From contig NC_085846.1 of assembly GCF_035594765.1 (NCBI RefSeq), forward strand, positions 14,991,190 to 15,055,189: a DNA stretch of 64,000 bases, written 5' to 3'. Position numbers and translations under genes: made by a program. The notes under the pieces are model-generated. The model did not search any database. It was not told where the DNA came from and was given only the letters and a program-made list of their open reading frames with translations. Numbering within the stretch: position 1 is the first letter of the stretch; every line of letters begins with the position of its first letter. Of the stretch, positions 4,783 through 23,955 are shown piece by piece. The stretch comes from Anolis carolinensis (taxonomy: Eukaryota).

Positions 4783-6609
4783 ACCAAATTAGACCATGTC
4801 TAAAAGCTTGGAAATCTCACATCCCATTTACAATCCAAAGTGGTTCCGCTAAAACTTTCCTTCTGCACAGGTGCCGCTAAAAATTTCCTTCTGCACAGTT
4901 TGACATAGCCTGACTTCTGGAGAACATCTTTCAACCAGAAGGCCAAACTCAATTTCTGAGGCACATCTACACTGTAGAATTAATGCAGTTTGATACTATT
5001 TTAGCTATCATGGTTCAGTGCTATAAAACCATGGTAGTTGTTGTTTGGCATAAAAGGCACTTTATGGCATAAAAAGCAAAAATGGAGGAGGAGGAAAAAG
5101 TCATCACCATTTAACTCGGTGACTGGGAATATATCCCCTGCTGTGTGTCAGGCATAGTGATAGTTGTGTAAGAAACACAATGAAGTTCAGTGATAAAATG
5201 CTTTGACTCACATGCAGGTGGTTACAAGTTTAGTGATCAGACGTCACGCACAATGCACAACCTTGTAATTGCAGGAAAAACAACTAGAGTCTCAAATCAT
5301 ACGTAGATTACCATTTGTATTTATAGCATAATTGCATTTATTATCTGTACACAACATTTTTATTTTGTTCTTCACCCAAAATACTAGCTCACAAATATCA
5401 GCAATGAGACAGAAGGTGCCCATAGACGCAATACAAAAAAATGGGACAGTGAGGGAGAAGGAGCAAAGTAATCTGGTTTACTTTATTACAAAGTTTGGAA
5501 AGTAGTAAAGTTTAGCAGGGCCTAAACAGTTGGTGATAGTTTCAGAGGCTGATCTACACGGTCCTATATCCCAGGATATGATCCCATATTATCTGCTTTG
5601 AACTGAATTATGAGTCTGAACTACCAGATAATCTGGGATCAAATCCTGGGATATAGGGCAGTGTGGAAGGGGCCAGAGTAGTGCCAAATGGTCATTGATC
5701 CAGTCACATCCCACAAGCAATAGTGAATGTGTGAGAGCTCCAGGTGCCAATTCAAGTTCAAATCTGAGAAATGCACACACTCCTGTATAGGAATGTATGT
5801 TTATAATAAGGGGGGGACACCATCATGGTGGACCCGTGGTCTTCAAATGAGTGGAAATGGAGGGGGGCAAGCAAATGTCCTACCTGAATTAAGAGATGAG
5901 TGGGAAACCTGCAAAACAACTTCTCTAGCTTTGAATTTATTGCCACCAGTATATATTGCTAATGGAATAAACATTGCTAATGCACAGAAACTACAATTAT
6001 AGCATAGAATAATTGATGATTGGAAGAAAAATGCAGAATATTGAAGAACTCATGTCAGGACAATGGATGGAGGAGTGTGCCATGTACCTGAACCAGACAT
6101 TGCAGTGCAGAGTGACGAATAAGCAGTATACTTTGCTTTCAATCAGTAGCTTAGTACAGTTGCTTCGTACAGTTGAATGGCAGAAGCATTTCAGATAGGC
6201 AACTTTCTGAGCCCAACAGAAAGATGTTCAAGAATCTTGAAAGATGTTTAAGATTCAACCTGGCACCTTTAGCAGATAAAGCAAATGCTTTACCACGGCT
6301 CTTTTTCAAGACAGATGATCTGATAATCTCAGCCTGTATAAAATAAGGCAATTACACATATGGTGATAATAGAAAGCATGTGTATCTGTGAGTGGCTGTA
6401 GGACAATGCTGCTATTTCTGTTTATTTGAGATCACTACTTTGGAGTAAATGGGCCAAATGCTGCAGTCAAGCAACTGACAGAGCTAGCTTCCAATCCACC
6501 TGTATGTCTCTTCTCCTCTAAGACAGCTTCCAGAACTGGAAGGCCCATTAGGCCATAGTCTCTGTTGGCTCTGTGGGATCTTGCTCCTCAAGGATCTCCA
6601 TCCTATGGT

Positions 6610-6740
6610 TCAGTTCTCCTCTTGCACCTCAGTCCAACATGCATCGACTATGAAGAACAATGCCAATAAAAGGACGCTGACTCCAAGCCCAAGCTGCAGT
6701 GAATTAGCTGTGGTGAAATCAGTGCTTTCAGTATGTGAAG
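6610..6740 (-). CDS. OSCAR-like transmembrane and short cytoplasmic exon
   Basis: ASHTESTDFTTANSLQLGLGVSVLLLALFFIVDACWTEVQEEN*; matches the LRC DYTxxNLxRLGL motif; AATAAA on - strand at 6421-6426. Confidence 0.82.
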
Positions 6741-9700
6741 CTTTGGAGAAATGAAAACATAAATATCAGCATGAGAAGAATGCTCTTATCAATGGTTCTA
6801 AATAGCAAGCAAAATATTTTTAAATGTTTTATTTATCACTAAAGGTGCTTTCAGACACAAAGTTGCTGATACCGTGTTTCCCCTAAAATAAGACAGTGTC
6901 TTATATTAATTTTTGCTCCCAAAGATGCTCTAGGTCTTATTTTCAGGGGATGTCTTATTTTTTCATGAAGAATTCGCATTTATTGTTGAACAAAAAAATT
7001 GAACATTTATTATATACTGTACAGTAGTTGTCATCACAAACCAGCATAACCAGACAAACTGAATCCTATCAAGAATTTCTTGTTACTACCATTATTTCCA
7101 TGTACACTACCCTATGGTACGTACATTTACTGATCCTTCATGCTCTGGTGTTCTGTTCAGCAGACATGCTTCCAAACAAAAACTTTGCTAGGTCTTACTT
7201 TCGGGGGAGGCCTTATATTTAGCAATTCAGCAAAACCTCTACTAGGTCTTATTTTCTGGGGATGTCTTATTTTAGGGGAAACAGGGTACTACTAGTAATT
7301 TGCTTCAAAAGCTTACGGAACAAAATCTATTTTATGCTTTGGAGTTGGCCCAATACAAGTATTGCTATCTGTGTGTTTGTATTTTGTTGTACAACCAACA
7401 CAGCTACCACTGAATATATTTTGTTTCTCAAATGCAGGTTTTGCCTCTAGCAATGTGTTGGGGAATTTGTTTTACAGGAGAACTATGCCTCCTTGAGGAT
7501 TCTACAGGCACAATTCTCCCCCTTTGGCCAAAATAAATAGGGATGAAAGGCAGGGGGCTGACAAAAACTTACATATGAGACCCTATGATTCTGACCATTA
7601 ACCTATTACCCCCAGCTAAATGCACCTTCCGTATTCCATCCTCGTTTTACTCCTACCTGCTTTTCCATGTTTTAAACTTCTTGGGAACACACCCTCCCCT
7701 TGCCAGTATTGCACATAGATGGCATGATATAATTTTACTACTTTCATTTTACACTTCTCTCATCCTCTTTGGGCTCACCTTCTGTCCACACTTCAGTATG
7801 GTTGAGTGGATATGCTCCATATTGGCACATTAGCTCTCCCTGGGTGGTATTGAGTGCCTCTTCTGTGAGATTGAAGCTTGCCTCTGTCCTATCTTGCCAA
7901 ACCTTGGTTTCAGCAATGAGCTGTTTGCCCTGGTAAAGATAGAACCAGCCTCCAGGACTGGAGGGCACTGAGCAGTTCACTCGATATCTTCCTGCAGAAT
8001 CCACCAACACTTCCTGGTAGCTGGGGACTTTGGATGCCTCTGGAAAAGACAAGAGCAGAACTGTTAAGGAACAAAACTAAAATGTCGCAGCTTAGGAGTA
8101 CTGTAATTTACAAATGTCCATGTTTTCTTTTTTCTTTCCAAAGGAAAGTTTATAGTCCTCATTATCACAAATATGTTAAACAGTATTTGAGCTTTGAGAC
8201 CTATGTTACACTGGTTTGGGTTTTGCCATGTGCTGAACACTATGCTAATGTGTAGGGTAACCCTGCTGTTGCCTTGCCCCATTTCACAGATTTTCAGGGC
8301 TCTCGCCAACACTTTTTGGGTTGTTCACCATTTTATATAAGGCGTGCTGTTTTACTGCACCATTATACAGTATATAACGGAACTTGAGCAAAAAAGGCAA
8401 CTTTCTTTTTTTTTTAATAGTTTTTATTAAGATTCAACAGTGTAATAAAATCATAGTTACAGGGGAGGGAAAGATTGCAATAGTGGGGAAATGAGAGAAA
8501 GGAAGAAAAGAAGAAGAAGAAAAAGGGGGGAAGGAAGGAAGAAAGAAAAAGGAGTGAGGGGAGGGGAAAGGAAAGAGGTAGTGGGGACAGAAGGAGGGAT
8601 AGTCCAAGATAATAAGGGAAAGGGTTTGTACTACCATTCTTCTTCTTTGCAATCCATCTGGAATATTACAAACATTCCATTCTATTTGTTTGTTATTTGC
8701 TATTTCTTTTATTCCGTCCTTCCCATTCGTTCTCCTTTATTCCGGAGCTTTCTTACTTTGTCCTTTTCTTTCTACCTATTTTTGTACTTCTATCAATTCT
8801 TTGTCTTTTACTTTCTCATATATTCTATAACCGGTCTCCAGTCTGTATCCTTTAAGGCAACTTTCACAAGTTTCCCAAGACATTCTGCTGCCTGAAGCAA
8901 AGAAGCAGATGTCACGTCCTCTCCCATTCTGCATACAGAAACTGACTAGATTCCCCTATGAATAATGGCAATCAATAGCATTCTTAATTTCCCTTGGTGG
9001 CAGTAAACGAGTTTATGAGACTAGGAAAAGTAATCTGGTGATCTGTTTTGCAAACAGAAACGACTGGCTGAAAAGACAAAGAAAAATGACAAACATTGCT
9101 ACCTCTTTACTCCTCACTCCAGCATCTGCCTCTTGAGGTGGTTGCCTCACTCTGCCTAATGATAATGCCAGTTTGGCACCCAAAATTTCTCATGCATGTT
9201 CTTACCAATGACTGTCAGCTGTGCTGCATCACTGGCATTTGACCAGATGACCGGCTCCGTCGTGCTGTGGTAATAGCAGGTGTATCGGCCTGCATCAGCC
9301 ATAGTGACATTATTTAAGAAGAATTCAGCGACGCTGGAGTCTCCCCGGGGAGTGATCTCCATCCGAAACTCCCTGGACTGGTAGAGGACAAAGTTTACCC
9401 CTGGAGATGGAGCCCAACAACGGATAATCCAGTCCTGCCCTACAAATAACTCATTTCCAGGACTTACAGCAATAAATGGCTTGGGATAATGATCTGAAAG
9501 AAGGGAAGAAAACAAATTCTCTTGAGTTCCACATCTTATTCTCTAGCAGCTTACCTTGGTTATTACTATTGTCCCTACAGTATTAATATACCCCACACAC
9601 AAAAACAAAACAATTAAATGGTCTTGTAAGTAACTACTATTTGTTTAGCTTATATTCCACCTTTCTCACCTTGTGGAACACGGTGCAGTTTGCAAAATAA

Positions 9701-11897
9701 GTTAAAACAACCACTCACCCTCTGTAATGTTTGCTGGGCTGCTGAGTGGAGAGTAAATGGCTTTGCCTGCCTCCTGGATCTCATAGCTGCAGCAAAATTG
9801 CTCACCTGGAGCAAATGCATGGACTGCAAACATTACTTTGGATTGTGAGGGCAAGGCTTTCTTTTCAGCAATGGGCTCTAGGTCACTTCCTTTGTACAGG
9901 TAGAACCAGCTGCCTGCATATTCCTCCTGAGTGACACATAGAAAGTGATGGTGCTTCCCTTCAGCATCCACAGTCTGATGCCAGAAGATGGATGGCTTTG
10001 GAAGGACTGGAAAAGAGAGAGACACTGGTATGGGAACTGGAAAACCATATCTCAAAAAAGAGGACAATGTCTGACAAAGTGAAGGACACTAGAGAAAGAG
10101 GAAGACCTCATTCTAGATTATTGTCTCAGTCTGGGAAGCAGCAGTCCTAGGTTTGCAAGACCTGAGCAGGGTGGTTGCAGATGGGTGGATATAGAGACCT
10201 CTCACTTATAGGATTATTATAGATCAAAGTTGACGTGAAGGTAGATACAATAAAGTTCTAAGTTATTTGGAATAGACCCTTCTCTCTGTCTCACGGTCTC
10301 CTGAAGCTTGTTTGGTAGCCTCTGGAAAGACGGTATTCTTGATGGTTGCTCCCAAGGAGGCCAGGATGGATTCCTCTTTGCTTTTCTTCCATTGGCAAGT
10401 AAAAACATTCCTATTCTATCAAATTTTAGGACCTGACTGTGATAGGCTTTTAATCCTCTTCTGTTGGTTTTTTTTAATTGGCTATTAATTAATGTACATG
10501 GTTAAATTCTGAAATGGTTTTTAAATACATTATTTATATATTTTGCGGATGCTTTTGTAGGCTTTTAAATTTGTACAGGTTTTATTACAGTCCAACCTCT
10601 ATATCAGTGGTTCTCAGCCTGTGGATCCCCAGGTGTTTTCACCTATAACTCCCAGAAATCCCAGCCAGTTTACCAGCTGTTAGGATTTCTGGGAGTTGAA
10701 GGCCAAAACATCTGGGGACCCACAGGTTGAGAACCACTACTCTATATCCTTAGGAGATACGTCCAAATTGTACAATCAGGAAACCATAAATAGCAAAATG
10801 AAATCGATGATTTATGACAGTCTCAATTTAGTTATCATCACTTCTAGTGAGAGTTCAGGTTCAGTTTGTTCTAAGACCCATTAATTTGTCATTTTAGCAC
10901 TTAAGCGGCTGAGGGGGGAAAGGGCCTGAGGCTGTTAGGAATTGTGGGAGTCCAAAACACCTGGAGGGCCAAAGTTTGCCCATGCCTTGGTTAAGCTGTC
11001 AAAGCCAGGGTCAGGGTGGATAATGTTTATGTCTTCCCACATTCAGATTTGTAAAATCACAACCCCACTTTTTTATCCAGAGTGTGAAAACTTTCTAAAA
11101 TACTTTCTGTAGGAGGTAGCTTTCATTTACAGAGCTCAAAAAGATACAGTTAATTAATTACAGTTCCTGTACTTGCAGTTATTTTTAAAGTAGTTTGAGT
11201 GTCCGACGACAACTCTGGGGAACTGGGGTTTAGAGCTCTCCAGGGCCATGCAACCAACTAGGTTACCTTGGGCAGGTCACACTCTCTCAGCCTCAGATTA
11301 AGGCAATGGCAAATCTCCTCTGAACAGATCTTGCCAAGATCTGTGATAGATTTGCCATGGGATCATCATAAGTTGGAAACTACTTGAAGGAACACAACAC
11401 AAACAACAGGGAAACTGACATCACTATATTCTAAAAATAACCAAAATAGAGTTATATATATTTCACAAAGATTCATTTTTACCAGGTTAAAATGATAATG
11501 CTAATAGGATAATTCTGGATCATAAGGAGCCAATATGGTGTAGTGATTTGAGCACTGGACTATGACTCCAGGAGACAAGGTTTCGAATTCCTGCTCAGCC
11601 ATAGAAACCTAGGAGGTGACCTTGAGGAAGTCACATCCTCTCAGCCTCAGAAGAAGCAAAGGCAAACCCTTAACAAATCTTTCAGAGAAAACCCTGTGAT
11701 AGACTCACCATACATTGGAAATGATTTAAAGGACAACAACAATAACACAATGTAACTGTACCTTAGACATTGCAAAAAAGATATCAATTGCAAGTAACAT
11801 GTCATTTGCTACTAGTTACTTCCAGGTTTGGTGCTCCAACAAGAGCCAAACAGTACTCACTTATAGTAAGAAGTAAGACAGGAAGGGTAACAGGCAT
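6610..11897 (-). CDS. OSCAR-like / LRC-type Ig-superfamily type I membrane receptor, 3 Ig domains, 343 aa (multi-exon span)
   Basis: Join complement(11861-11897,10295-10321,9719-10006,9206-9493,7779-8039,6610-6740) = 1032 nt open frame, all phase-1 GT-AG introns. Split signal peptide MPVTLPVLLLTI/KATKQASGD, three Cys-pair Ig exons, TM exon DFTTANSLQLGLGVSVLLLALFFIVDACW. Same position and orientation as OSCAR next to NDUFA3 in human. Confidence 0.85.
6872..7286. mobile_element. Non-autonomous Tc1/mariner-type DNA transposon
   Basis: TIR CCGTGTTTCCCCTAAAATAAGACA at both ends, TA TSD, internal subterminal repeats. Confidence 0.85.
7779..8039 (-). CDS. OSCAR-like Ig domain D3 exon (divergent)
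   Basis: 261 nt, VNC...GGWFYLYQG...ASFNL...GELMCQY, ttttccag/gtgag. Confidence 0.82.
8406..8853 (-). mobile_element. 5'-truncated L1-type LINE in OSCAR-like intron
   Basis: Poly(A) plus AATAAA on - strand, ORF2-like end KDTDWRPVIEYMRK*, 12-bp TSD AAGGCAACTTTC (8394-8405 / 8854-8865). Confidence 0.75.
9206..9493 (-). CDS. OSCAR-like Ig domain D2 exon
   Basis: 288 nt, YPKPFI...IRC...FVLY...AEFFLNNVT..DAGRYTCYY...WSNASD; canonical C2-type LRC domain resembling OSCAR D1. Confidence 0.92.
9719..10006 (-). CDS. OSCAR-like Ig domain D1 exon
   Basis: 288 nt, LPKPSI...FLC...WFYLYKG...FCCSY...SPLSSP, ttttccag/gtgagt. Confidence 0.88.
10295..10321 (-). CDS. OSCAR-like exon 2 (27-nt signal peptide mini-exon, KATKQASGD)
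   Basis: tctttccag|...|gtgaga, phase 1-1, supplies an A-S-G cleavage site; LRC genes have such a mini-exon. Confidence 0.6.
10605..10739. mobile_element. hAT-Charlie-type MITE (CAGTGGTTCTCAACCT family)
   Basis: Palindromic, perfect TSD CTCTATAT. Confidence 0.88.
11526..11746 (+). mobile_element. tRNA-derived SINE (Squam3-like)
   Basis: A/B boxes, GACCTTG...GTCAC core, (CAA)n tail; related pieces at 11250-11405, 35117-35298, 62600-62790. Confidence 0.65.
11861..11897 (-). CDS. OSCAR-like exon 1 (signal peptide part 1, MPVTLPVLLLTI)
   Basis: 37-nt ATG exon with hydrophobic codons, ending A|GTGAGT; typical LRC first exon. Confidence 0.75.
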
Positions 11898-12481
11898 CCT
11901 TTGAAGATACAGAAATCCAATGGAAGGCAATAACTTTATGCCAAATCTTAAAATAAAAAATTGAGTGTCTGAGACTCTTAAAGATGCATGAATCCCCCAG
12001 GAAATGATGAACCATCATCAGTCACCATGGAGAGGGAGGGAGGAAAGACAGCCAGTTCCCCTTCTGACAGAGGCAGGAGGAAATGTATTCCTATTTGAGA
12101 CATTCAGTCACTCTAAAGATAGTTATGGAAGCTATATCCTCTGCATGGGTGTGAAGATGGAAAATGGATGATCTGCATTGCATTTTAACAGTTCATTCTT
12201 AAACTGTAATGTACGTCTTGAGGCTGGAGCAACTTGTTTTTTCCCCCCACCAAGTAAATTGGGCTTTCTTCCTTTTTTCTGAGACATAATAGGAGATCAT
12301 AAGATGAGATGTTTAAATGTCAGCAATTTCACTATTCAATAAAACAGTATCTGATGGCTCCTCCGTGTTAGGGAGCATCAATTTCTACCAAGAAATAGTC
12401 AACTGGGCTGTCAAATATGCTCTGCTGGTATGAACCAAAAACAGAGGACCATTATAAGGGAATACTGTTGAACTACTAAAT

Positions 12482-12982
12482 CAGGAGTGTCAAACTCATT
12501 TGCATTGAGGTCCACATCAGCCTTATGGTTGCCTTCAAAGGGCAGTTGAATCCATGGATGATGAATCCGTGAATACAGAGAGCCACTATAATTTTCTTAC
12601 CTAAGGATCAGTGTTCTTTTGTTTTTACCCAACCCGGGTCCCATATGTTATTAACTGACAACTCTCATCACGTTTGATTATCTGCCATGCAGACTTGGGA
12701 TAATGGGAATTGCAACTCAACTGCACTTGTGATCTAAGGTTGAGGAAAGGTAAGAAGACATTTTAAAGTCAGGCATCATAGCCACAAGCCTTGTATCTAA
12801 ATTCAAACCCCATTCTCCTAACAAAGCAAAACAAACTGCAGCCTTCCAGACGTTACCATATCATAATTTCTATCAGCTCTAGTCACAATGTACAATGATT
12901 AGGAATACAGGAGTTATAGTTCAGCATCTGAGGGCCACATAAAATGACAGATTTGGCCTACAGGCCTTGAGTTTGACACGTG
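12482..12982. mobile_element. Old non-autonomous hAT element
   Basis: TIRs CAGGAGTGTCAAACTCA / TGAGTTTGACACG; inverted relative at about 247-814. Confidence 0.6.
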
Positions 12983-13719
12983 TATACTGGATGGATCTTG
13001 AACTAAATCAGTAGGAAGGGTCAGACTTATCATTAGGCAGCCACCTCAGACAGTAGATATGGAAGTATTAATAAGTAGCAAATTAACTTTTTCATTTTTT
13101 ATTATTGTATTTTCAGATCTTGGAAAACTGACTTCTTTTGACCAGACGCCCCAGAATTTCATATAACGTTTCTCTCGGTCTCCTGCCAGTAGCAATGCTC
13201 AGTAAGAGCATGGGAATTTGTAATTTTAAAAAGTAATTTTTATGATTTAGTATTTTTTCTGATGAGACTGGAAAGAGTTTCTTGTTGGATATCTTTATAA
13301 GGATATCCCACTTTATATAACAATATAAAGCAGATGTAGGGGACCGTTCCCCCCCCCCCCCCTATTGTGCCAGGGATTGTGCTCAGTGGTTGCAATTTCT
13401 TTTTGAAATCATACTCACTGCAGACTAGCTATCAGTTGCTCGTACACCAACACCAGCCCAAAGATAATTATTTTAAGTAATACTATTCTAGAATAAGGGG
13501 TATGAATCATTTTACCTTCCAGATGTTATAATCATCAGTATGGCACACTATTGACACTGTTTTGAGAAACATCTGGAAAGCCAAATGATTCCAAGTCCGT
13601 TTCTAGAGTCTAATAGAATAAAAAAAAACCTCCAGATATTTCCAAAGGCAAATTATTGAGATGTTTAAAAGACCAACAGTCTGGAGCCTTGGGGTTGAAT
13701 AAGGCCGAAAGCTTCCTCC

Positions 13720-13760
13720 TCTCAGATCCGGAAAGTCCCTGATGATGACTCAAAGGAAGC
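13720..13760. promoter_or_regulatory. Candidate NF-kB/AP-1/ETS enhancer
   Basis: GGAAAGTCCC 13730-13739, TGACTCA 13746-13752, AGGAAG adjacent. Confidence 0.5.
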
Positions 13761-15364
13761 AGCAAATGGTGCACAAAAATTATCTCTCTTTCCTTGGAGT
13801 TAGCTGGGTAGACTGAAGCATGAAATATGGCTCTTTGGAAAGAAACTGAATGGATGATTGCAGAGAAGCAGGCACAGAATTTCTAGAGTCCTACCTCAAT
13901 TGCCTTCCCCAGTGGGGTGCCATCTAGATGTGTTGTTGGACTACCACTCCCATCACCCAAGGCAGCATGGCTGGATGGTGATCAGAACTGTTGTCCAACA
14001 CATTTGGCATGTATTGGATGCGGAAATAACTTTTGCCCATTCCTAAAATTGCATTTGAGATTACTATATAGCAATCAGCGAAGTACACTCTGCACATGCT
14101 CTGATGATAGACACTTCCAAAATAAAAGTAAAGAAGTAGCATACCTTCCTACATTTTCCAGACAAAAGTTATGGCCAAACAACAGTAAAGTATTATCAAG
14201 CTGGATTATGTTATCAATAAAAGAGTTAGGAGAAGCTACTGCAGTTTGCCTTTCCTTGAACCTACTGGAAAGGGCAAGTTTCCACCCATTCTTTTCATAA
14301 ATCATGCCATGCCCATATATGTAAAATCTATAAACTGTATTTCTATGCTTATAAATCAAAGCTTGGTTAAAGTGACTCGATTCAATAATACCTGCAGAAT
14401 ATTTGGAATAATATACAGTAAGATATTTGTTAAATACAGTCTTCCCTGGGCTTTTCAAAATAATTTGGATAAGTGAATGATGAACAAATAGCTTTTTAAT
14501 GCAGCAGCTATCTCAACTGAACAAAATAACTTCAGTTTTTAGACTTCATTGCTAGAATATTGTTCCACACAAAATAGCATAGGCATGGAGACCCTTATCT
14601 ATTATATTGGATCCTGTTTTGGGAATCTTGGAAGTGGTAATCCAAAAAATATATGTTTCCAGGCTCTCCCTACACGGGAGTATAATTGTTTTGCAATGCC
14701 ATGCTCCTGATCTCCTTTCATGTAGCCACCAGAGAACAGCTCATAGGAAATTGTGGAAGCTTTGGGAACTGTCAGGCAGAACAGCACAAATAGTCCATCA
14801 TCCATATGTGTCATTATGTGCAGGCAGAAGACATTTACATAACTTTTGCAGCCTGAACGATTCACCCAATTAATAAACAACATTAATACATCCAAATTAT
14901 GATATTGGATAGACAGGATTAATTTGTTAGCTGGCATAACCGTGATTTCATGCAGGGTTTGCTTTTTAAAGGGTGGCTGCAACATTAGGGAAAGTGAGGC
15001 AATGGCTTCTCTTTCTCCTTAGTGCTAATTCCTCTCAGGATAGAGCTGTGTGACCTATATATTCCCTAAAGTTACCAGCTGCTTTTATCTGTGGTGGAAG
15101 ATATTATTTCCATTTACAGCAGAGCTTTCCAAAATGTGTGTCACGACATGTTTGTGTGTTGGCTGCAATGTGTAGGTGTGTCGCACGAAAGTAACAAGAA
15201 ACCTCTGAGTCTATGTGAAAAAAGCAATAAATCCTACATTGCACACACACATATATATGTGAAAGGTTTTCAAGAGATACGTTGTGTCCCTATAAATGTT
15301 ATTACAATGTATCTATGTATCCGCATATCTTATAAGGGGTTGGTTTAAGCTGGAGCTGGCTTTG

Positions 15365-15480
15365 CTGTGATTGGCTAGGCTCTGATGACGTCAGGGGGGA
15401 TTCCCTGCAAAGGCAAGACTGCGGTACCTGCCAGCCAATAGAAGAGCGTTCGCCGCTTCCAATGCAAATTCCTGTTTTCC
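15365..15480. promoter_or_regulatory. Candidate orphan promoter/enhancer (CCAAT, CRE, NF-kB, octamer)
   Basis: ATTGG 15370, TGACGTCA 15386, GGGGATTCCC 15396, CCAAT 15435 and 15459, ATGCAAAT 15462; locally CpG-rich. Confidence 0.55.
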
Positions 15481-15960
15481 AGTGGCTGACAAGGTGCAGG
15501 ATGGAAACTTATGACAAAGGAGACATAGTTTCATGATGGGATTACATTGTTCCTTCTCTGGGACAAACTAAGTGGCTATGCATTTTATTGTGAAGATAAT
15601 GGCAATATGAGTCCCCAGTGAATGGGTCCAATGCCTCTGGCTCTGCTGTCCATTGAGTCCAAAATCAGAAATATTGTCTAAGATGATGGGATCAAGTGGT
15701 CAGTTCCTGGGAAAGGGTAAATGTCACTGTTGGAGAACAGGGCATTTATTTATTTATTAGCGACATTTATATTCTGCCCTTCTCACCCCAAAAGGGACTC
15801 AGGGTGGCTTACAAGCCATATGTACATACAATATATTATATTATTCATATAGCACAATATAAGCATTATATATTACTATATTGTACTATAACACTATATT
15901 GTAATATTATTAGTAATATTACATAGAATATAAATATACCATTATAATAGTGTATTATTT

Positions 15961-16110
15961 TATTATGACACAGCAAACAAGATAGATATGTTGGATTTTG
16001 TATCACAAAATCACAAGTCGAACACTTCCCAAGTGTCTAGAACTGTGTGATGTATTTTCGGATGATGCGTGCAGATCCCAGTAGGGTGGCCTTTTGTAGT
16101 TGGCAGATTG
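15961..16110 (-). mobile_element. Dong/R4-clade non-LTR retrotransposon 3' end
   Basis: - strand ICQLQKATLLGSARIIRKYITQF*, then 3'UTR ending in a TAA-rich tract. Confidence 0.7.
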
Positions 16111-16204
16111 TCCTCGGAATGGTTAAGCCCCCCCACCACGTCAAGGTGGCACCTGTGTGTGTGTGGGGGGGGGGTGTATTATTATTATTCTTATTATTAT
16201 TATC

Positions 16205-16397
16205 GGGCTGTGGCGCAGGCTGGAGAGCAGCTGCAATGAATCACTCTGACCAGGAGGTCATGAGTTCGAGGCCCGCTCGGAGCCTATGTTTGTCTTGTCT
16301 TTGTTCTATGTTAAAAGGCATTGAATGTTTGCCTATATGTGTAATGTGATCCGCCCTGAGTCCCCTTCGGGGTGAGAAGGGCGGAATATAAATGCTG

Positions 16398-16400
<3 letters not shown>
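16205..16400 (+). mobile_element. tRNA-headed SINE with L2-like 3' tail, followed by (TA)n
   Basis: GGGCTGTGGCGCAG...GAGTTCGAGGCCC head; CCGCCCTGAGTCCCC...GGGCGGAATATAAAT tail. Confidence 0.65.
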
Positions 16401-16446
<46 letters not shown>

Positions 16447-16560
16447 TTACATTAGAATATATTTAATATTATATGCATATACAATGTATTTCATTATTAG
16501 TATAGCATAATATGATTATTATATATTATTAATGATCTTCTCCTCATTGGAAGTGACTTA

Positions 16561-16711
16561 AGGCCCTTCCAGACGGGCCCTATATCCCAAGATCTGATCC
16601 CAGGTTTTCTGCTTTAAACTGGATTATGTGAATCTGCACTGCCAGATAATCTGGGATAAACAGAAAACCTGGGATCAGATCCTGGGATATAGGGCCTGTC
16701 TGGAAAGGCCC
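16561..16711. mobile_element. PIF/Harbinger-like palindromic MITE
   Basis: Long inverted arms starting GGCCCTTCCAGAC; relatives at about 3134-3260, 5547-5675, 28032-28180. Confidence 0.65.
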
Positions 16712-17272
16712 ATGCTCAAGCCATTGCACTAGTATCAAAATTCCTACCCATTCTTACTTTTTGTATAGAATTGTACGACAGAAAATGTGTGCTGCACTAT
16801 ACAAAAAAAAAGCATTATATTCCACTTGAACAGCCATTGCAACATACCATAAAGTCTTGGGATTTCCTGTTTAGAGAGGAATATTTGGAGTTAGCCAGAG
16901 AATCCGGCACTTCACCAGCCTATGACCTCCGGGCTTCACAAAGGACGTCATTATGGCAGTTGAAAGATGAATATAGGACTATAATTGTGTCACTTAAAAA
17001 CCAGGCTTGGACTTACAAAACTTGATTTCTAAACCTTCAAACATATCATTTCTTTACTCATTTGGCCCAAAGGAGAGGCAAGGAAGAAGGGGCGGAGGTC
17101 CCTTTAAAAAGAAGTGTCCAGGTGAGTAATAGAAAAGCACTGATTTTGGAACGCAGGACACTCAAGAGCATGGAGCTGTGACAAATCAAGTGGGATCAAA
17201 CTGCATTAATTCTACAGTGGAGACACTCTAAGAAAGTTAGTGGGGCACTAACAGTGGAATCACACTCTAGCC

Positions 17273-17641
17273 CAGGCATGGGCAAACTTGGGCCCTCCAG
17301 GTGTTTTGGACTTCAACTCCCACAATTCCTTAACAGCCTCCTAACAGCCTGCTGGCTGTTAGGAGGCTGTTGAATTGTGGGATTGAAGTCCAAAACACCT
17401 GGAGGGCCCAAGTTTGCCCAAGGCTGTTAGGAGGCTGTTAAGGAATTGTGGGAGTTGAAGTCCAAAACACCTGGAGGGCCCAAGTTTGCCCAAGGCTGTT
17501 AGGAGGCTGTTAAGGAATTGTGGGATTGAAGTCCAAAACACCTGGAGGGCCCAAGTTTGCCCAAGGCTATTAGGAGGCTGTTAAGGAATTGTGGGAGTTG
17601 AAGTCCAAAACACCTGGAGGGCCCAAGTTTGCCCATGCCTG
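17273..17641. mobile_element. hAT MITE with tandemly amplified right arm
   Basis: Perfect TSD CTCTAGCC; four tandem ~71-bp right arms. Confidence 0.9.
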
Positions 17642-17697
17642 CTCTAGCCAATACTAGTAGGCCTTTTAAATTTTTCCCCATCTTATGTACAGAAATA

Positions 17698-18005
17698 CAG
17701 TAGAGTCTCACTTATCCAACATAAACGGGCCGGCAGAATGTTGGATAAGCGAATATGTTGGATAATAAGGAGGCATTAAGGAAAAGCCTATTAAACATCA
17801 AATTAGGTTATGATTTTACAAATGAAGCACCAAAACATCATGTTAGACGACAACTTTGGCAGAAAAAGTAGTTCAATATGCAGTAATGCTATGTAGTAAT
17901 TACTGTATTTATGAATTTAGCACCAAAATATCACGATATATTGAAAACATTGACTACAAAAATGCGTTGGATAATCCAGAACGTTGGATAAGTGAGAGAC
18001 GACTG
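17698..18005. mobile_element. TcMar/Tigger-like non-autonomous element
   Basis: TIR CAGTAGAGTCTCACTTATCCAA, TA TSD. Confidence 0.85.
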
Positions 18006-18235
18006 TACCTTGAAACTCTGGCTCCATTTACACTGCCATGTAATGCAGCTTGAAACTGCATTATATAATCAGTGCAGACTTAAATAATGCTGCATTATGT
18101 AAGTCTATACTGCCTATACAATGCAGTTTCAATCTGCATTACATGGCAGGTGGATGGGGTCACAGCAGCCAAACAGGACTGCAAGCAAGCAACAGCTCTT
18201 TTTCAATAGAGATGTTCAGCGAGAGAGTGTGTACA

Positions 18236-18290
18236 AAACTACAGTTCCCAGGAATCCCTGCGTTTCCGGTTCCTTGAATCCAAGATGTCG
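18236..18290 (+). promoter_or_regulatory. NDUFA3 core promoter (ZNF143/SBS-like, ETS, YY1-like)
   Basis: ACTACAGTTCCCAGGAATCCCTGCG, TTCCGG, CAAGATGTCG overlapping the ATG. Confidence 0.7.
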
Positions 18291-18300
18291 GGGCTCAGCA
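18285..18300 (+). CDS. NDUFA3: NDUFA3 coding exon 1
   Basis: ATGTCGGGGCTCAGCA|gtaagt right after promoter motifs; phase fits exon 2. Confidence 0.8.
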
Positions 18301-21300
18301 GTAAGTGCAAGAGCAGTGCATCTAATGCTTGCTCCGGGGTTGTTGGGTCAATGCATTTCCTAGCAAACAGAGAACTCCTCCGCTTGAATAAGGGAATAAA
18401 AGCTTTGGGGACATCTCAGTATATATATATTTGGAGGAGTGTTGGTTTTGGGTGGAGAAGGGAGGGCAAGGGCATTGAAAGGATAACTTGCTTGAACTCT
18501 TGTAAAGAAAAAAAAGGGTTTGAAGACTTGATCTAGGCGATGTTGTGTGACCTTTTATGTATTTTAAATAGATGTTAATGGTTTTAGGTGTTCAGTTTTA
18601 GATAGCTCTAGTTTTAATTTTATTTCAGTGTGTGTAGGCTTTTAAATTATTTTAATTGTATATTGTTTTTAGCACTATTCGCTGTAAGAGAGATAACAAC
18701 AACAATAACTTGCCAATGGCAAGGGAATGCAGTTGAATTGAGATTAATGGTTGTACTGTGTGGAAGGTGAGGTGTGCTTCTACACTGTCGAATTAATGCA
18801 GTTTGACACGACTTGAACTGCCATGGCTCAATTCTTTGAAAGTATGCGAGTTGTAGTTTTACAAGGTCTTCAGCCTTTTTTTGTCAAAGAGGGCTGGTGC
18901 CCCACCAAACTACATCTCCCAGGATCCCGTAGCACTGTGCCATGAAAGGTAAAGTGGTGTCAAACTGCATTAATTCTACAATGTAGCTGCACCCTGGGTC
19001 TGGAGTTGTCAAACTTTTTTTTATTGATGTTCCAGATACGTTATTTATAGGAAATGTTGCCTTCAATAAGGCAGCATTACACTTGTTTTACTCAGTAGCG
19101 AGTCTCATTCAACATGTGTAGATGACAGATATTTCTGCTGTGCATATACAGTAGAGTCTCACTTATCCAAGATAAACAGGCCGGCAGAACCTTGGATAAG
19201 CGAAAATCTTGGATAATGAGGGATTAAGAAAAAAGCCTATTAAACATAAAATGACATTATGATTTTACAAATTAAGCACTAAAACATCATGTTTTACAAG
19301 AAATTGACCGAAAAAGCAGTTCAATACACAGTAATGTTATGTAGTAATTACTATATTTACGAATTTAGCACGAAAACATTGCAGTATTTACTACAAAAAC
19401 AATGACTACTAAAAGGCAGACTGCCTTGGATAATACAGAAGCTTGGATAAGTGAGACTGTACTGTACTATACTGTACAGCAATTGAAATCTATTAGCATG
19501 TGGACAATTTTAACAGAAAGGAGGAAACCATGAAAATGAACAAAATCTGGCTACCAGTATTTAAAAAAAGGACAGTAAATAAAGAGCAACACTCAAAAAA
19601 ATAGATGAATTCTAGAAAAGAAACAATTAGGGCCAGCTAACACCTCCCAAAAAAGGGTCCCCCCAGGCAGGAAGCAGCCAGGCTTTGAAGCTGCAAGGCC
19701 ATTCAATGCTAATTAAGCTGGCCAATTACAACATTCACACTTGCCTCAAGCAGACAGGAGTTTTTTCTCCCACCCTGGACATTCCACAAATATATAAAGC
19801 CCACTTGACTAGTTTCTAACAGACCTCACAAGCTCTGATGATGCCTGCCATAGATGTGGGCAAAACATCAGGAGCAAATGCTTCTGGAACATGGTCCTGC
19901 ACCTGGAAAACTCACACCAATCCTGTGCACATATACTATTTTATTTATTTTCAATGTTTCTGTTCCACTTTTCCATTACTAATGTTCAGTGTTTCTTTAG
20001 AACAATAGTTCTCAACCTGTGGGTCCCCAGATGTTTTGACCTTCAACTTCCAGAAATCCTAACAGTTGGTAAACTGGCTTGGATTTCTGGGAGTTGTAGG
20101 CCAAAACACCCGGGGACCCACAGGTCGAGAACCACTGCTTTAGAATAAAAAAGGACCTAACCAGATCAACAACAATTTTTAAAAGTAGGAGCAAACCAAG
20201 ATACAGGAGGAGCCAGCAAAAGCCTTAGAGATATTTAGTGTCTATAAAATACTTTTCTTTGCAGTGGGTAAACAAGTGGTGCCAGTGACTGTTCATTTAG
20301 CTTCCTTAGTGTGGAGGCTGCTTTGGGGTTGACTTAATTCTTTCAATACTAGAAGACAAAATTGATCTAACTAAAGTTCCCACAGTGCTCCTTTCTGTAG
20401 GTCATCTATCACTCCAATTTTCACCTGTTTCGACGTATTAGGACTTCCTCATCTCTTGCCAGAGGCCCAGGTGTTTTTAAAAAAATCCTATAAATTGTGT
20501 ATGTTTCTTTTTTCTCTGTCCTATAGAAGTTGGAGCATATCTGAAGAATGCATGGGCGAAGGAGCCTGTGATCGTAGTCTCTTGTGCCCTTGGTTTTGTA
20601 GGTGAGTTCATGTATTTCCTTGCGGCTCAGACATCGTTATTTTAATAACATCCCACTCCCATTGTGGTACTAGAGGCAGCATATAAATGTTCACTTCTTG
20701 TGTTCTGGTTACTTACATGAATCAGACTACTTGGCTTTAGCAAAGGTGCTATATTATAGCTCTTCAAGCCATTTCTACAGAACTTAATTTACTGCTCGCT
20801 CTCTCTCTTCTCTGCCTTGACTGTTTACTGCACAGGACTACCTTTCCATCAGGGAAGGGTTATGGCTTGGTGCATATACAAGGTGGCAATTCTAGGGAAG
20901 GTGACTGTTTGAAACTGGACAACTGTTCCCAAGAATGTGATGAATACTGAGCTAGACAGATCTCCAATATCTGCCAGGTAATTCTTTTCTGATGCAAATC
21001 TTTGTTTTCTTTCTCCATTTCAGCTGTAATACTACCCTGGATCAGTCCCTACACTAAATACAGCGGCATGGCCAACGAAGCTGTACCATATGCGTATCCA
21101 GGTACAGTCAAACCTATAGTGTTCATTTGTTTCAGATGTGGTTTCTGTTCTTTAGGGGATTACAGTGACCTAGTCTTTAAGTAGGGAAAACCATTTCTTG
21201 AAAGAAATATGTCTGTTGGTGAAAAATGAAGTAGTAATTCTATCTCTATAATTATATAAAAATCCTTTAGTCCCTAAATTATTAGCTTGCAGAGACTGAG

Positions 21301-21819
21301 GTATTGAAAATCATTCACACTTAGGATTCCTGTATTTGCTTTGCTGGTGCTTCCTTGGTTGTCTTTGCATGCCCGTTTTCTTTGGAGGCCTAAATTGTAC
21401 TGGTAAATTCTCAGCTGTAGTTTTTAATACTTGATATTTGGGTAAGGAAGGGAAATTCTATTTGAGTGCCATTATTCTCTCCCTGCCCCAACCCCCCAAA
21501 AGAAGGCTATCCTTCTGGTTGTTTATGCTTTTGGAAAGATGTGATATTCTGAAGTTTTCGGATAGCTCCTAAGGCTGATTTTGCTTTGCGATGTCACATT
21601 TTTTAGTGTTGCATTCAGATAAATGTTTTTAATGACTCCCTCTCCCAGAGATACTTAACTGTATCAGGCTGCAGCTGAATACAAAGGCATGGCCACTTAT
21701 TTAATTGTCCCTCTCTCTTGTCCTCAGTTCCAGTTCGAGATGATGGCAACATGCCAGATATACCCTCCCATCCCTGCGATAAGGAAGGCCCAAGCCTTGA
21801 TTGGCTGAAGAACTTCTAA
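18285..21819 (+). CDS. NDUFA3: NADH dehydrogenase 1 alpha subcomplex subunit 3, 86 aa (multi-exon span)
   Basis: Join(18285-18300,20527-20601,21024-21101,21728-21819): [86 protein letters not shown]; AATAAA at 21878. Confidence 0.95.
18770..18995. mobile_element. Harbinger-like MITE (GTGCATCTACACTGTAGAATTAATGCAG family)
   Basis: Inverted ends; relatives at 4960-5070, 27720-27927, 41710-41905. Confidence 0.6.
19149..19464. mobile_element. TcMar/Tigger-like non-autonomous element
   Basis: Same TIR family as 17698, TA TSD. Confidence 0.85.
19520..19925 (+). mobile_element. Penelope-like element 3'/pLTR fragment with degenerate hammerhead
   Basis: CTGATGA-GCCTGC...GTGGGC-AAAAC-ATC-AGG motif; homologous to 41005-41475. 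Confidence 0.7.
20003..20137. mobile_element. hAT-Charlie-type MITE
   Basis: Perfect TSD CTTTAGAA. Confidence 0.88.
20527..20601 (+). CDS. NDUFA3: NDUFA3 exon 2
   Basis: 75 nt, [18 protein letters not shown]. Confidence 0.95.
21024..21101 (+). CDS. NDUFA3: NDUFA3 exon 3
   Basis: 78 nt, [13 protein letters not shown]...PYAYP. Confidence 0.95.
21728..21819 (+). CDS. NDUFA3: NDUFA3 exon 4
   Basis: [16 protein letters not shown]...WLKNF*. Confidence 0.95.
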
Positions 21820-23955
21820 GAGTGACCCACACAGAAAGCTAGTGCTACCCTTTCTTGTACATGTATTTTGAGGATGTAATAAACTTGTTGTTAAATTAAA
21901 AATAGATTCTACAGTTTTTGTCTCAGATAGGAAACCTTTGCAACACCAACTCCCAAAATCCGATACCAGGATGTTCAGTGGTAAAGGATTATGGTACTTG
22001 GATTTGAATACCTCTAGGGGCAAAAATGTTAGTAGGTATCGCAGCTAGGTCCTCTAGATGGATTGCATATTGCTTGGACACTGTCCATACCAATCTGTTT
22101 CTTTGTTAAACCTGTCAAGAAACTTAACCATTTAGGTAGCATAGTTTCTTACTTCAAGAAAATGTGTAATTTTAAGTTTTCTTGAGAGAAGTCAACAGAT
22201 GATAAATCAGTTTGTTTCTTCTTTGAACTAGTCACGTTACTAGTGCAGTGCAGTCGGGAACATGGCAGTGGGAGGAAGAAGTTGGCATGCTAATTTTATG
22301 GCGGAGGTGCACAGAAAATAAGTGGAGAACTGCTGCCAGATAGCCATTCAGCATTATATCTCTCAGTTGTTCAACATTCTATCCCATTATAAATGTGGCT
22401 ACTGAAACAAACAGGAGAAGATTAGTGGTTTTAGATAAAATATAAAATGGGTTAATTCTGATATAAAAACACATTACAAAATTCAGCATGCATTTAAAGT
22501 TGCCCTGTTTCTAATACTAAGGGTGTTGTCATTTCTTCGCATCATTTCTCAGAATTTTATCCACAGAGATATCTTTTAAAAAATCCCATAAGCTTGAAGG
22601 CTGTCCACTTTTGTGGTAAGAAACGTATTCTGGTGGTGTACACAAGGTAAAAATTCTTTGAAAAAGATGAGAGATGGTATACCTTATTCAGAGCAATTGC
22701 CTTTTCTTTTGGATGAAAATTCCCAGAATTACCAAGTCAACATTGGCTGTGATTTAGAAGCAAAAGTATTTTCCAGGATGTTTGTTGTAGTTTTAAGAAA
22801 TTGAATTTTTAGTCCTTAAGATTATAAAAAGGGGTTAAAAACATGGAGAAAAAAAATCTGATTTTTTAAGTGTTTTTCTTATAACCAATAGAAGAACAAA
22901 CTCTGAAACACTGACAGCTTCAATGAATTGACCTAAGCAATACAGGATGCAAAGCTTTGCTTTTATTGGCACAGAACTGACTTGTTTAATGCAAGCCGCC
23001 ATGATGCGAGTTCTTCCAAAGCTGATGTTCTCCAGGGATGCTGGGATGCAGATCCCATCACTTCCACTCAAACAACCAATGCAGACTACGGGTGGGATTC
23101 TTTCAGGTATTGTCAGGAAACATTACTGCTCTTCCATGTGATGATGTTCTCCAGAGACTTGTCTTCTAACAACTGCTAAACCCAATGCTAAGGGAGAATT
23201 GGTCTCCTATGGCCTTCACTGCCAAGGCAAGGTTCTAAGGTGTGTCTCCTGACCAGTCTCACTAAGGACACATTATTACAGACATTTGGATTCAGTCTCC
23301 ATTCCTCATCTACTTCCTCAGAAGAACCTGTGGAAGCCAGATACAATCTCCCCTTTAGTTTAGACATCATTTCTTACAAAAGGACAACAGATGAGAGGCT
23401 GAACACTTAATGACTCAAGCAGCAGCACTCTCCTTTCCAACACATCCACTAAGACATTTAAATTACATAAAAGCTGGCCACTAAGTGCCCATTTCCACCT
23501 GGTATCCTACATTAGGATTTCAGACATGTGAAACACAATCCCTTCATCTAATACAATATTCCCTCCAGCTATGTGGGACTACAGCTCCCACTGTCCTCTG
23601 CCTTTGGCCATGGTGTTTGGCAACAGCAGGAGATGAAGTCCCACACACTGGGAAGGTGTCAGGGTGGGGCAAAATACAAAGTACACAGAATACATAGTGG
23701 TTTCAGTACTATTACTGACTTCTAGGTTATTTGATAAATGTCCCAGTACAGTTCATATTGATATTTGACTTTTCCACTCAGTGTGGAATTGAGTTCAGGG
23801 TACAGAAGGTGTATTAAATTTCTATACTCCATCTCCCTCTGTTCCTAGAAAATGAGCTTGTGCTCCTTCAATATCATTTGACAAATCGGTGGGAAGCAAC
23901 AGATGCAAGTGATATATAGAATCTCCTTTGGAGTTCAGGCTAGTGGTGACTGGCC

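What the first reader, a model, noticed from the sequence alone, without database searches (positions are those of the whole stretch)
6610..6740. OSCAR-position receptor lacks the transmembrane Arg and has no signalling tail: possible decoy or rewired LRC receptor
Seen: the TM exon reads TDFTTANSLQLGLGVSVLLLALFFIVDACWTEVQEEN*, with Gln (CAG, 6696-6694). Known: activating LRC receptors (OSCAR, GPVI, NKp46, LILRA, FcaRI) carry DYTxxNLxRLGL, whose Arg recruits the FcR-gamma ITAM adaptor. Here that Arg is Gln, and the ~10-aa tail has no Tyr, so no ITIM or ITAM. Inference: a non-signalling, decoy or adhesion receptor. Alternatively it couples through the Asp in LFFIVDA, reminiscent of CD16 LFAVD, though that Asp may simply be the usual LRC D/E-x-W end.
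Basis: partly seen in the sequence, partly recalled or inferred. Interest (0 to 1): 0.7.

Follow-up and report, generated by a model that had tools for sequence, protein, structure and literature searches.

The report
Anole immune receptor lost activating arginine
The green anole's copy of an old reptile and amphibian immune receptor has glutamine where every relative with a membrane segment has the arginine that docks the signalling partner, so it likely sits on cells and binds its target without switching them on.

Summary
6740-6610 (minus strand) is the last exon of an intact five-exon, 334-aa, three-Ig LRC-type receptor gene facing NDUFA3. It equals RefSeq XP_062840072.1 of Anolis carolinensis. 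Spliced contigs from 4 of 4 runs (4 studies) carry CAG at 6696-6694 and show no later exon. Gln is derived: 48 of 48 other species with an alignable TM (squamates, crocodilians, turtles, amphibians) have Arg. The other two features are not anomalies: the Asp (16 of 17 Arg-bearing squamates have D/E) and the short Tyr-free tail are ancestral. By mutagenesis precedent (OSCAR R231, FcaRI R209) the receptor is likely uncoupled from FcR-gamma, whose TM exon is intact here. Decoy versus early decay is unresolved. The ectodomain is intact (1 change in 83 conserved columns), but it evolves faster than in Sceloporus, and both sister-lineage records lack a TM. The only other activating-type LRC TM found in this genome also lacks Arg (His). 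The other three LRC genes look inhibitory. It is not OSCAR proper (three domains). It is a new variant of a known kind; natural Arg-to-Gln also occurs in salamander paralogues.

The parts
11861..11897 (-). Exon 1 coding part: short hydrophobic leader (37 nt, phase 1)
   Evidence: same leader in Sceloporus, Rhineura, Gekko, Podarcis. RNA support is indirect: X8's contig has 57 letters before 10006, and the depth in bin 11724-12024 equals 57 letters of that contig
9719..10006 (-). Exon 2: Ig domain 1 (C19orf38/HIDE1-type Ig, PF17737)
   Evidence: no sequence match among solved structures
9206..9493 (-). Exon 3: Ig domain 2, typical LRC C2-type; matches OSCAR D1, LILR, GPVI
7779..8039 (-). Exon 4: Ig domain 3 (PF17737) and stalk
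6610..6740 (-). Exon 5 coding part: stalk end, DFT-xx-N-xx-Q transmembrane helix, short tail, stop
   Evidence: helix 300-333 in the model
6694..6696 (-). CAG, Gln307, at the column that is Arg in all orthologues
   Evidence: unchanged in 4 of 4 spliced contigs
6643..6645 (-). GAT, Asp324: ancestral acidic residue at the TM end
5635..6609 (-). 3' UTR of the terminal exon (about 1 kb)
   Evidence: Contigs of X14, X13, X9 run unbroken from 6740 to 5635-5643
9988..10027 (+). Antisense alternative first exon of NDUFA3 (in-frame ATG 9988, donor 10027), overlapping the receptor's Ig1 acceptor
   Evidence: Joint 10027 to 20527, GT..AG on +, in X9 and X14, two studies; frame
18285..21901 (+). NDUFA3 (canonical ATG 18285, exons 2-4), head-to-head neighbour
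   Evidence: gene name from the translated sequence, recalled

Best explanation
This is an intact, spliced three-Ig LRC receptor gene whose transmembrane arginine has changed to glutamine in the anole lineage, so it likely reaches the cell surface and binds its ligand but likely can no longer recruit the FcR-gamma signalling chain. Shown: gene structure, splicing, Gln in the transcript, Arg in all 48 other species with a TM, no tyrosine motif in the tail, an intact FCER1G TM exon. Inferred: one CGG-to-CAG transition made the change (CGG is the only Arg codon one step from CAG; the ancestral codon was not seen). Inferred: loss of the Arg-Asp11 pairing abolishes assembly, as in OSCAR and FcaRI mutants. 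Inferred: surface delivery survives, because this TM class usually does not need the adaptor. Inferred: the protein then acts as a silent ligand binder (capture, adhesion or damping of activation). The ligand is unknown; collagen is only a lead from the likeness to OSCAR.
For: Arg in 47 of 47 other species by HMM alignment plus Varanus P0007. The ectodomain tree groups rows by lineage, with one gene per species. CAG in 4 of 4 spliced contigs, terminal exon. Ectodomain intact: 1 change in 83 conserved columns; terminal branch 0.15, like Varanus 0.15 and Podarcis 0.16; paired Cys in all three domains; three Ig folds, mean pLDDT 78. FCER1G-like TM exon with Cys and Asp intact (L023). [quoted passage not shown] FcaRI R209L is stable on the surface and not associated with the gamma chain (PMC2213528, passages). 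Even Arg-to-Lys greatly reduces assembly (PMC1440944, passages). NxxR receptors usually do not need FcR-gamma for surface expression (PMC6557307, Discussion).
Against: No binding or signalling was tested. If the change is recent, an intact ectodomain says nothing about present selection. Anolis has more private changes than Sceloporus with all 6 outgroups (p<0.05 in 4 of 6), though against Phrynosoma only 1 of 6 reaches p<0.05 (outgroups not independent; protein level only). The Anolis tail has also lost all Lys/Arg, present in 23 of 23 Arg-bearing tails. The two nearest relatives' records have no TM: Sceloporus shifts frame in Ig3 and Phrynosoma reads into the intron. Only 1 of 4 contigs points to the leader exon; X13 runs into intron 1, and the older RefSeq model lacks the leader. 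No other anole could be checked.
Confidence: 0.5

Rival explanations
1. The gene has become dispensable in pleurodont iguanians and is in early decay: Arg-to-Gln is a drift-fixed loss of function, and the protein has no selected role.
For: 3 of 3 pleurodont records lack an Arg-bearing TM (Anolis Gln; Sceloporus frameshifted model; Phrynosoma model ends before the TM). Faster change than Sceloporus. Loss of basic tail residues. Contigs without the leader. An antisense NDUFA3 first exon overlaps Ig1.
Against: Open frame, canonical splice sites, spliced in 4 studies. 1 of 83 conserved columns changed. Sceloporus Ig1-2 is very little diverged (branch 0.02), so its frameshift is recent or an assembly error. 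TM-less models also occur outside pleurodonts (Elgaria, Ophiophagus, Ahaetulla, one Varanus model), so they are weak evidence.
Confidence: 0.3
2. The receptor still couples to FcR-gamma, CD247 or another partner, weakly or in a CD16-like way, through the polar face Asn304, Gln307 and Asp324.
For: CD16 and FcRI associate with Fc-gamma without a basic TM residue, and carboxamide side chains can drive TM helix association (PMC1440944, passages). NxxQ recurs in two salamander paralogues (P0143/P0198 Ambystoma, P0150 Pleurodeles), which suggests Gln can be retained. The DFT and Asn positions are kept.
Against: Asp324 is ancestral and present with Arg (16 of 17 squamates; Varanus FIVDA), so it is no compensation. 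The same paper shows strict preference for Arg. R209L FcaRI does not associate.
Confidence: 0.15
3. Gln is a segregating variant or an assembly error, or another exon supplies an Arg TM or an ITIM tail.
For: Contigs drop rare variants. Coverage of the codon in the two DNA-like runs (X4, X15) was not shown.
Against: 4 of 4 spliced contigs from 4 studies and both RefSeq proteins carry Gln; the exon is terminal. No second TM exon of this type lies in the window or the 100 kb beyond it.
Confidence: 0.05

Closest known systems
OSCAR (mammalian osteoclast-associated receptor)
   Same: Next to NDUFA3 in the NDUFA3-TFPT-PRPF31-CNOT3 block (human order recalled; block named in PMC6557307). DYT/DFT-xx-N TM type and short tail. 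Ig2 matches OSCAR D1 (E 2e-19). Best TM-scores in the fold search (0.53-0.56, rmsd 6 against 12-17 for the others). First Atlas hit, tied at 0.95.
   Different: Three Ig domains rather than two; domains 1 and 3 are HIDE1-type; about 21% identity in the structural alignment; Arg absent. Domain orientation in the model is unreliable (pTM 0.37). Collagen binding untested. PMC8072347 says no reliable OSCAR orthologue is predicted in reptiles.
Activating NxxR LRC receptors (GPVI, FcaRI, NKp46, LILRA, TARM1)
   Same: Same TM subtype, acidic residue at the TM end, short tail without tyrosine motif (PMC6557307).
   Different: Arg replaced by Gln; no Lys/Arg in the tail.
Gamma-less FcaRI / engineered R209L and OSCAR R231 mutants
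   Same: Surface receptor without adaptor: what this protein likely works like.
   Different: Here the state is encoded in the genome of a wild species, not an engineered mutant or an unassociated pool.
Unnamed three-Ig receptor of reptiles and amphibians (automatic names TARM1-like, IGSF1-like, A1BG-like)
   Same: This gene is its anole member: 48-79% identity to 27 reptile rows; the whole three-domain profile matches salamander and caecilian proteins.
   Different: The only member with a TM that lacks Arg (1 of 49 species).
Salamander NxxQ LRC paralogues (P0143/P0198, P0150)
   Same: Natural Gln at the Arg position, short tail.
   Different: Different gene, independent change; no functional data seen.

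Membership tests
LRC Ig-like receptor family | C2-type Ig domains whose best matches are LRC receptors | tested here: met
   Top solved-structure hits are LILRB1, PirB, OSCAR, KIR, GPVI; domain 1 alone has no hit
LRC Ig-like receptor family | One phase-1 exon per Ig domain, separate TM exon, next to the NDUFA3-TFPT-PRPF31-CNOT3 block | tested here: met
   neighbour names from translations, recalled
Activating NxxR LRC receptor | Arg in the NxxR motif | tested here: not met
   Gln307 in the genome and in 4 of 4 spliced contigs
Activating NxxR LRC receptor | DYT-like start, Asn, acidic residue at the TM end, short tail | tested here: met
   DFT, Asn304, Asp324, 7-residue tail; features as listed in PMC6557307
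Activating NxxR LRC receptor | Associates with and signals through FcR-gamma | not testable with these tools
   Adaptor TM exon present; its ITAM exons were not found in the 3-kb locus held; binding needs co-precipitation
OSCAR orthologue | Two Ig domains D1-D2 | tested here: not met
   Three Ig exons and three folds
OSCAR orthologue | Adjacent and opposite to NDUFA3 | tested here: met
   On the far side lie FAM83, Ly6 and Shisa domains, and no further Ig exon in 100 kb
OSCAR orthologue | Clusters with mammalian OSCAR in a tree | not tested
   The tree held reptile rows only
OSCAR orthologue | Collagen-binding site on D2 | not tested
Inhibitory LRC receptor | Cytoplasmic ITIM | tested here: not met
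   No Tyr in the tail, terminal exon; three paralogues do carry ITIM-like exons
CD16-type FcR-gamma partner | Acidic TM residue that serves adaptor binding without a basic residue | tested here: inconclusive
   Asp324 is present but ancestral and co-occurs with Arg; the CD16 motif is recalled, and the paper opened gave nothing on it

The most novel reading that the evidence does not exclude
The green anole has switched off FcR-gamma-coupled activation across its whole leukocyte receptor complex. Of five LRC-like genes found, the two with activating-type TMs both lack Arg (Gln here, His in a ten-Ig gene 1 Mb away, whose closest gecko and girdled-lizard relatives mostly keep Arg), and the other three are ITIM-type. 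This ancient tetrapod receptor has been kept as a selected silent or decoy ligand binder.
Probability: 0.2. Interest if true: 0.65.

Novelty: new variant of a known kind. Interest (0 to 1): 0.42.

Why it matters
The NxxR helix is called the most conserved element of the LRC, and the reason is unclear (PMC6557307). A wild vertebrate that carries a natural 'Arg mutant' of an otherwise invariant, apparently single-copy receptor offers a clean test: Q307R and D324A in the anole protein, and R-to-Q in a gecko or Pogona orthologue. The comparison also exposes a three-Ig receptor conserved from amphibians to crocodilians at the OSCAR position, in groups where no reliable OSCAR orthologue is recognised. 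That bears on where OSCAR came from. If the gene is merely decaying, it is an ordinary lineage-specific loss.

Tried and rejected
Run search: no holder is on record as RNA; four guessed-RNA runs gave spliced contigs. X4 and X15 behaved as DNA and did not show the codon among the listed pieces: inconclusive. Contig depth was not used as expression, because the X9/X14 contig merges two opposite-strand transcripts. Searches for other pleurodont sequences: three protein searches and three cluster look-ups gave no other anole or iguana; the short hits P0043-P0045 are Ig3 exons without a TM. That is no evidence of absence. Genome-wide hunt for an Arg-bearing TM: two degenerate patterns gave 2 hits against 3 in the control and 101 against 23. 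Of the 101, 10 were scattered, 90 listed lay in one tandem array and 1 was unlisted. None of the 13 loci scanned (2 + 10 + 1 of the array) reads as a TM. The patterns are strict and would miss divergent TMs; a TM-exon query missed even the known paralogue. Asp as CD16-like compensation: rejected as unsupported. Short Tyr-free tail as an anomaly: rejected. Soluble read-through form after Ig3: depth in bin 7510-7810 equals the exon's share alone, so no support. GPI anchoring: considered by eye, no clear small-residue site and an acidic tail; not tested with a predictor. Complex prediction was not run: the report does not claim binding, and a one-residue TM change would not be resolved. Earlier findings of this scan: none returned. 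Paper search on HIDE1 and PMC8953085 gave nothing of use.

Full report
Observation. The minus strand at 6740-6610 is a coding exon with an AG acceptor, a hydrophobic helix and a TGA stop. The codon at 6696-6694 is CAG and the tail has no Tyr. Four upstream exons (11897-11861, 10006-9719, 9493-9206, 8039-7779) join it through GT..AG introns into a 334-aa frame. That frame is identical to P0036, RefSeq XP_062840072.1 of Anolis carolinensis. An older 264-aa model (P0001) has the same TM but starts inside Ig1.

RNA. No run is on record as RNA, but 4 of 4 guessed-RNA runs laid (X9, X14, X13, X8; 4 studies) hold one contig that skips the three introns from Ig1 to the TM exon. None differs from the genome at the Gln codon; X13's three differences in that piece are in the 3' UTR. 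Three contigs continue without a break to about 5640 and X8's to 6350, so the exon is terminal. The limits: contigs hide rare alleles, and the two DNA-like runs did not show this place among the listed pieces. The 5' end is less tidy. X8 fits the leader exon by depth arithmetic only. X13 runs into intron 1 up to 10474. X9 and X14 continue through a plus-strand GT..AG joint from 10027 into NDUFA3 exon 2. That contig must merge two opposite-strand transcripts, probably because both short first exons were clipped in assembly (inference). Its depth is therefore no measure of receptor expression.

Orthologues. Protein searches and cluster look-ups gave this three-Ig receptor in 54 species records. 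By HMM alignment 48 have a TM: 47 Arg and Anolis Gln (a second TM row from a fused Mauremys model is not counted). The Varanus record used there lacks a TM, but P0007 has one with Arg. So 48 of 48 other species with a TM have Arg: 24 squamates including the agamids Pogona and Phrynocephalus, 3 crocodilians, 17 turtles, 4 amphibians. Five of 53 other species lack a TM in their records (Sceloporus, Phrynosoma, Elgaria, Ophiophagus, Ahaetulla). A tree of 27 reptile ectodomains (Emys left out as too short) groups geckos, agamids, anguimorphs, snakes, turtles and the three pleurodonts as expected. The amphibian proteins are assigned by whole-length architecture, not synteny. No bird or mammal member was identified among the hits I had named (10 of the 150 representatives were looked up). 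Gln is thus derived.

What is not unusual. Among the 23 Arg-bearing rows of alignment A2, 21 have no Tyr in the tail and 17 have tails of 13 residues or fewer. At the Asp324 column 16 of 17 squamates have Asp or Glu, and Varanus has the very FIVDA of the anole together with Arg. PMC6557307 (Discussion read) lists acidic residues at the TM end as a usual feature of NxxR helices. The only anomalies are the Arg loss and, newly seen, the loss of all Lys/Arg from the tail, present in 23 of 23 others.

Mechanism. In FcaRI, R209 pairs with Asp11 of FcR-gamma (PMC7801909, passage). R209L is stable on the surface but unassociated (PMC2213528, passages). Even Arg-to-Lys greatly lowers assembly (PMC1440944, passages). 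OSCAR with R231 made neutral fails to recruit the adaptor (PMC8072347, section 11). The anole has an FCER1G-like and a CD247-like TM exon (L023, L024; assignment by recalled sequence). I put uncoupling itself at about 0.8. What the uncoupled protein does is open. For retention: open frame, canonical splice sites, splicing in four studies, 1 change in 83 conserved ectodomain columns, and an unremarkable branch length. For decay: more private changes than Sceloporus (p<0.05 with 4 of 6 outgroups; against Phrynosoma 1 of 6), a Sceloporus model that shifts frame in Ig3, a Phrynosoma model that reads into the intron, and leaderless contigs. Those two records could be annotation or assembly faults, and I could not read their DNA.

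The rest of the anole LRC. Four protein queries found LRC-like Ig exons only on C6. A profile scan of 440 kb around them and around the pattern hits gave 21 Ig exons in five genes and two DYT-type TM exons. One is this one. The other, at C6:16,006,143 after ten Ig exons, has His (CAC) at the Arg position. Its closest relatives in Hemicordylus and Eublepharis show Arg in 4 of 5 TMs and Cys in one (P0048, P0129, P0169; orthology not established). The three genes at 16.367-16.412 Mb have uncharged TMs and downstream ITIM-like exons. Two genome-wide patterns found no Arg-bearing TM. The genome search gives lower bounds and most of the 1.4 Mb between the clusters was not fetched, so 'no activating LRC receptor' is a lead, not a result. 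Natural Arg loss is not unique: among the TMs of the 150 representatives are NxxQ in two salamander proteins, NxxH in a turtle and NxxC in Hemicordylus.

Relation to OSCAR. The gene faces NDUFA3. Beyond it lie FAM83, Ly6 and Shisa domains and no further Ig exon in 100 kb. Ig2 matches OSCAR D1. The model's best TM-scores are to OSCAR, with the caveat of pTM 0.37. The Atlas lists OSCAR first, tied with LILRA and FcaR clusters. But the protein has three domains, two of them HIDE1-type, and no tree with mammals was made. It works like an Arg-mutant OSCAR-class receptor. It is a member of the LRC, but it is filed neither as OSCAR nor as an activating NxxR receptor.

Literature. Searches (listings) showed no paper on this gene or on the anole change; the library holds open-access papers only. 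PMC4536121 and PMC9162367 were seen as passages; neither passage set describes it. Figure 1 and supplements of PMC6557307 and Supplementary Figure 3 of PMC8072347 were not seen and may show further TM variants.

Verdict. A real, transcribed, derived loss of a residue that is invariant in 48 other species, in an old and little-described receptor. It is a new variant of a known kind. Interest 0.42: one substitution in one species, with natural and engineered precedents, but cleanly testable and possibly part of a wider loss of LRC activation in anoles.

Noticed in passing
window 9988-10027 (+) spliced to 20527: Alternative NDUFA3 first exon lying antisense on the receptor's Ig1 acceptor, 10.5 kb from exon 2; GT..AG joint in two studies. 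An in-frame ATG would give a 14-residue N-terminus in place of the usual six. Abundance unknown.
   Followed up: partly
G000:C6:15983139-16006538 (L062, L010, L011): LRC gene with ten Ig exons and a DYT-type TM that has His in place of Arg, followed by a longer tail ending at a likely donor.
   Followed up: partly
G000:C6:16367148-16412100 (L003-L008): Three tandem inhibitory-type LRC genes (2, 3 and 3 Ig exons), with uncharged TMs and two ITIM-like motifs each.
   Followed up: partly
P0002 (Sceloporus), P0003 (Phrynosoma): Both nearest relatives' models lack the TM: one shifts frame early in Ig3, the other reads into the intron after Ig3. Real loss or annotation fault not decided.
   Followed up: partly
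P0143/P0198 (Ambystoma), P0150 (Pleurodeles), P0109 (Emys), P0048 (Hemicordylus): Other natural non-Arg versions of this TM: NxxQ in salamanders, NxxH, NxxC.
   Followed up: no
window 10027-10474: Contigs of X13, X14 and X9 cover part of intron 1; possible internal start or retained intron that would give a leaderless product like the 264-aa model P0001.
   Followed up: no
window 11861-11897: Very short leader (12-13 residues) joined straight to Ig1, with no mini-exon as in mammalian LRC genes (recalled); the same in other reptiles.
   Followed up: no
window 9719-10006 and 7779-8039: Domains 1 and 3 match the HIDE1/C19orf38 Ig family (PF17737), also in alligator and axolotl relatives; a possible link between HIDE1 and the LRC.
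   Followed up: no
L013-L022 (100 kb beyond the window start): Neighbours carry FAM83 (SACK1), Ly6/uPAR and Shisa domains; no TARM1/VSTM1-like Ig exon.
   Followed up: partly
G000:C17:9388786-9395906: Tandem array of a 36-bp unit over about 7 kb, with long open frames of a 12-residue repeat; hit by the motif pattern by chance.
   Followed up: no
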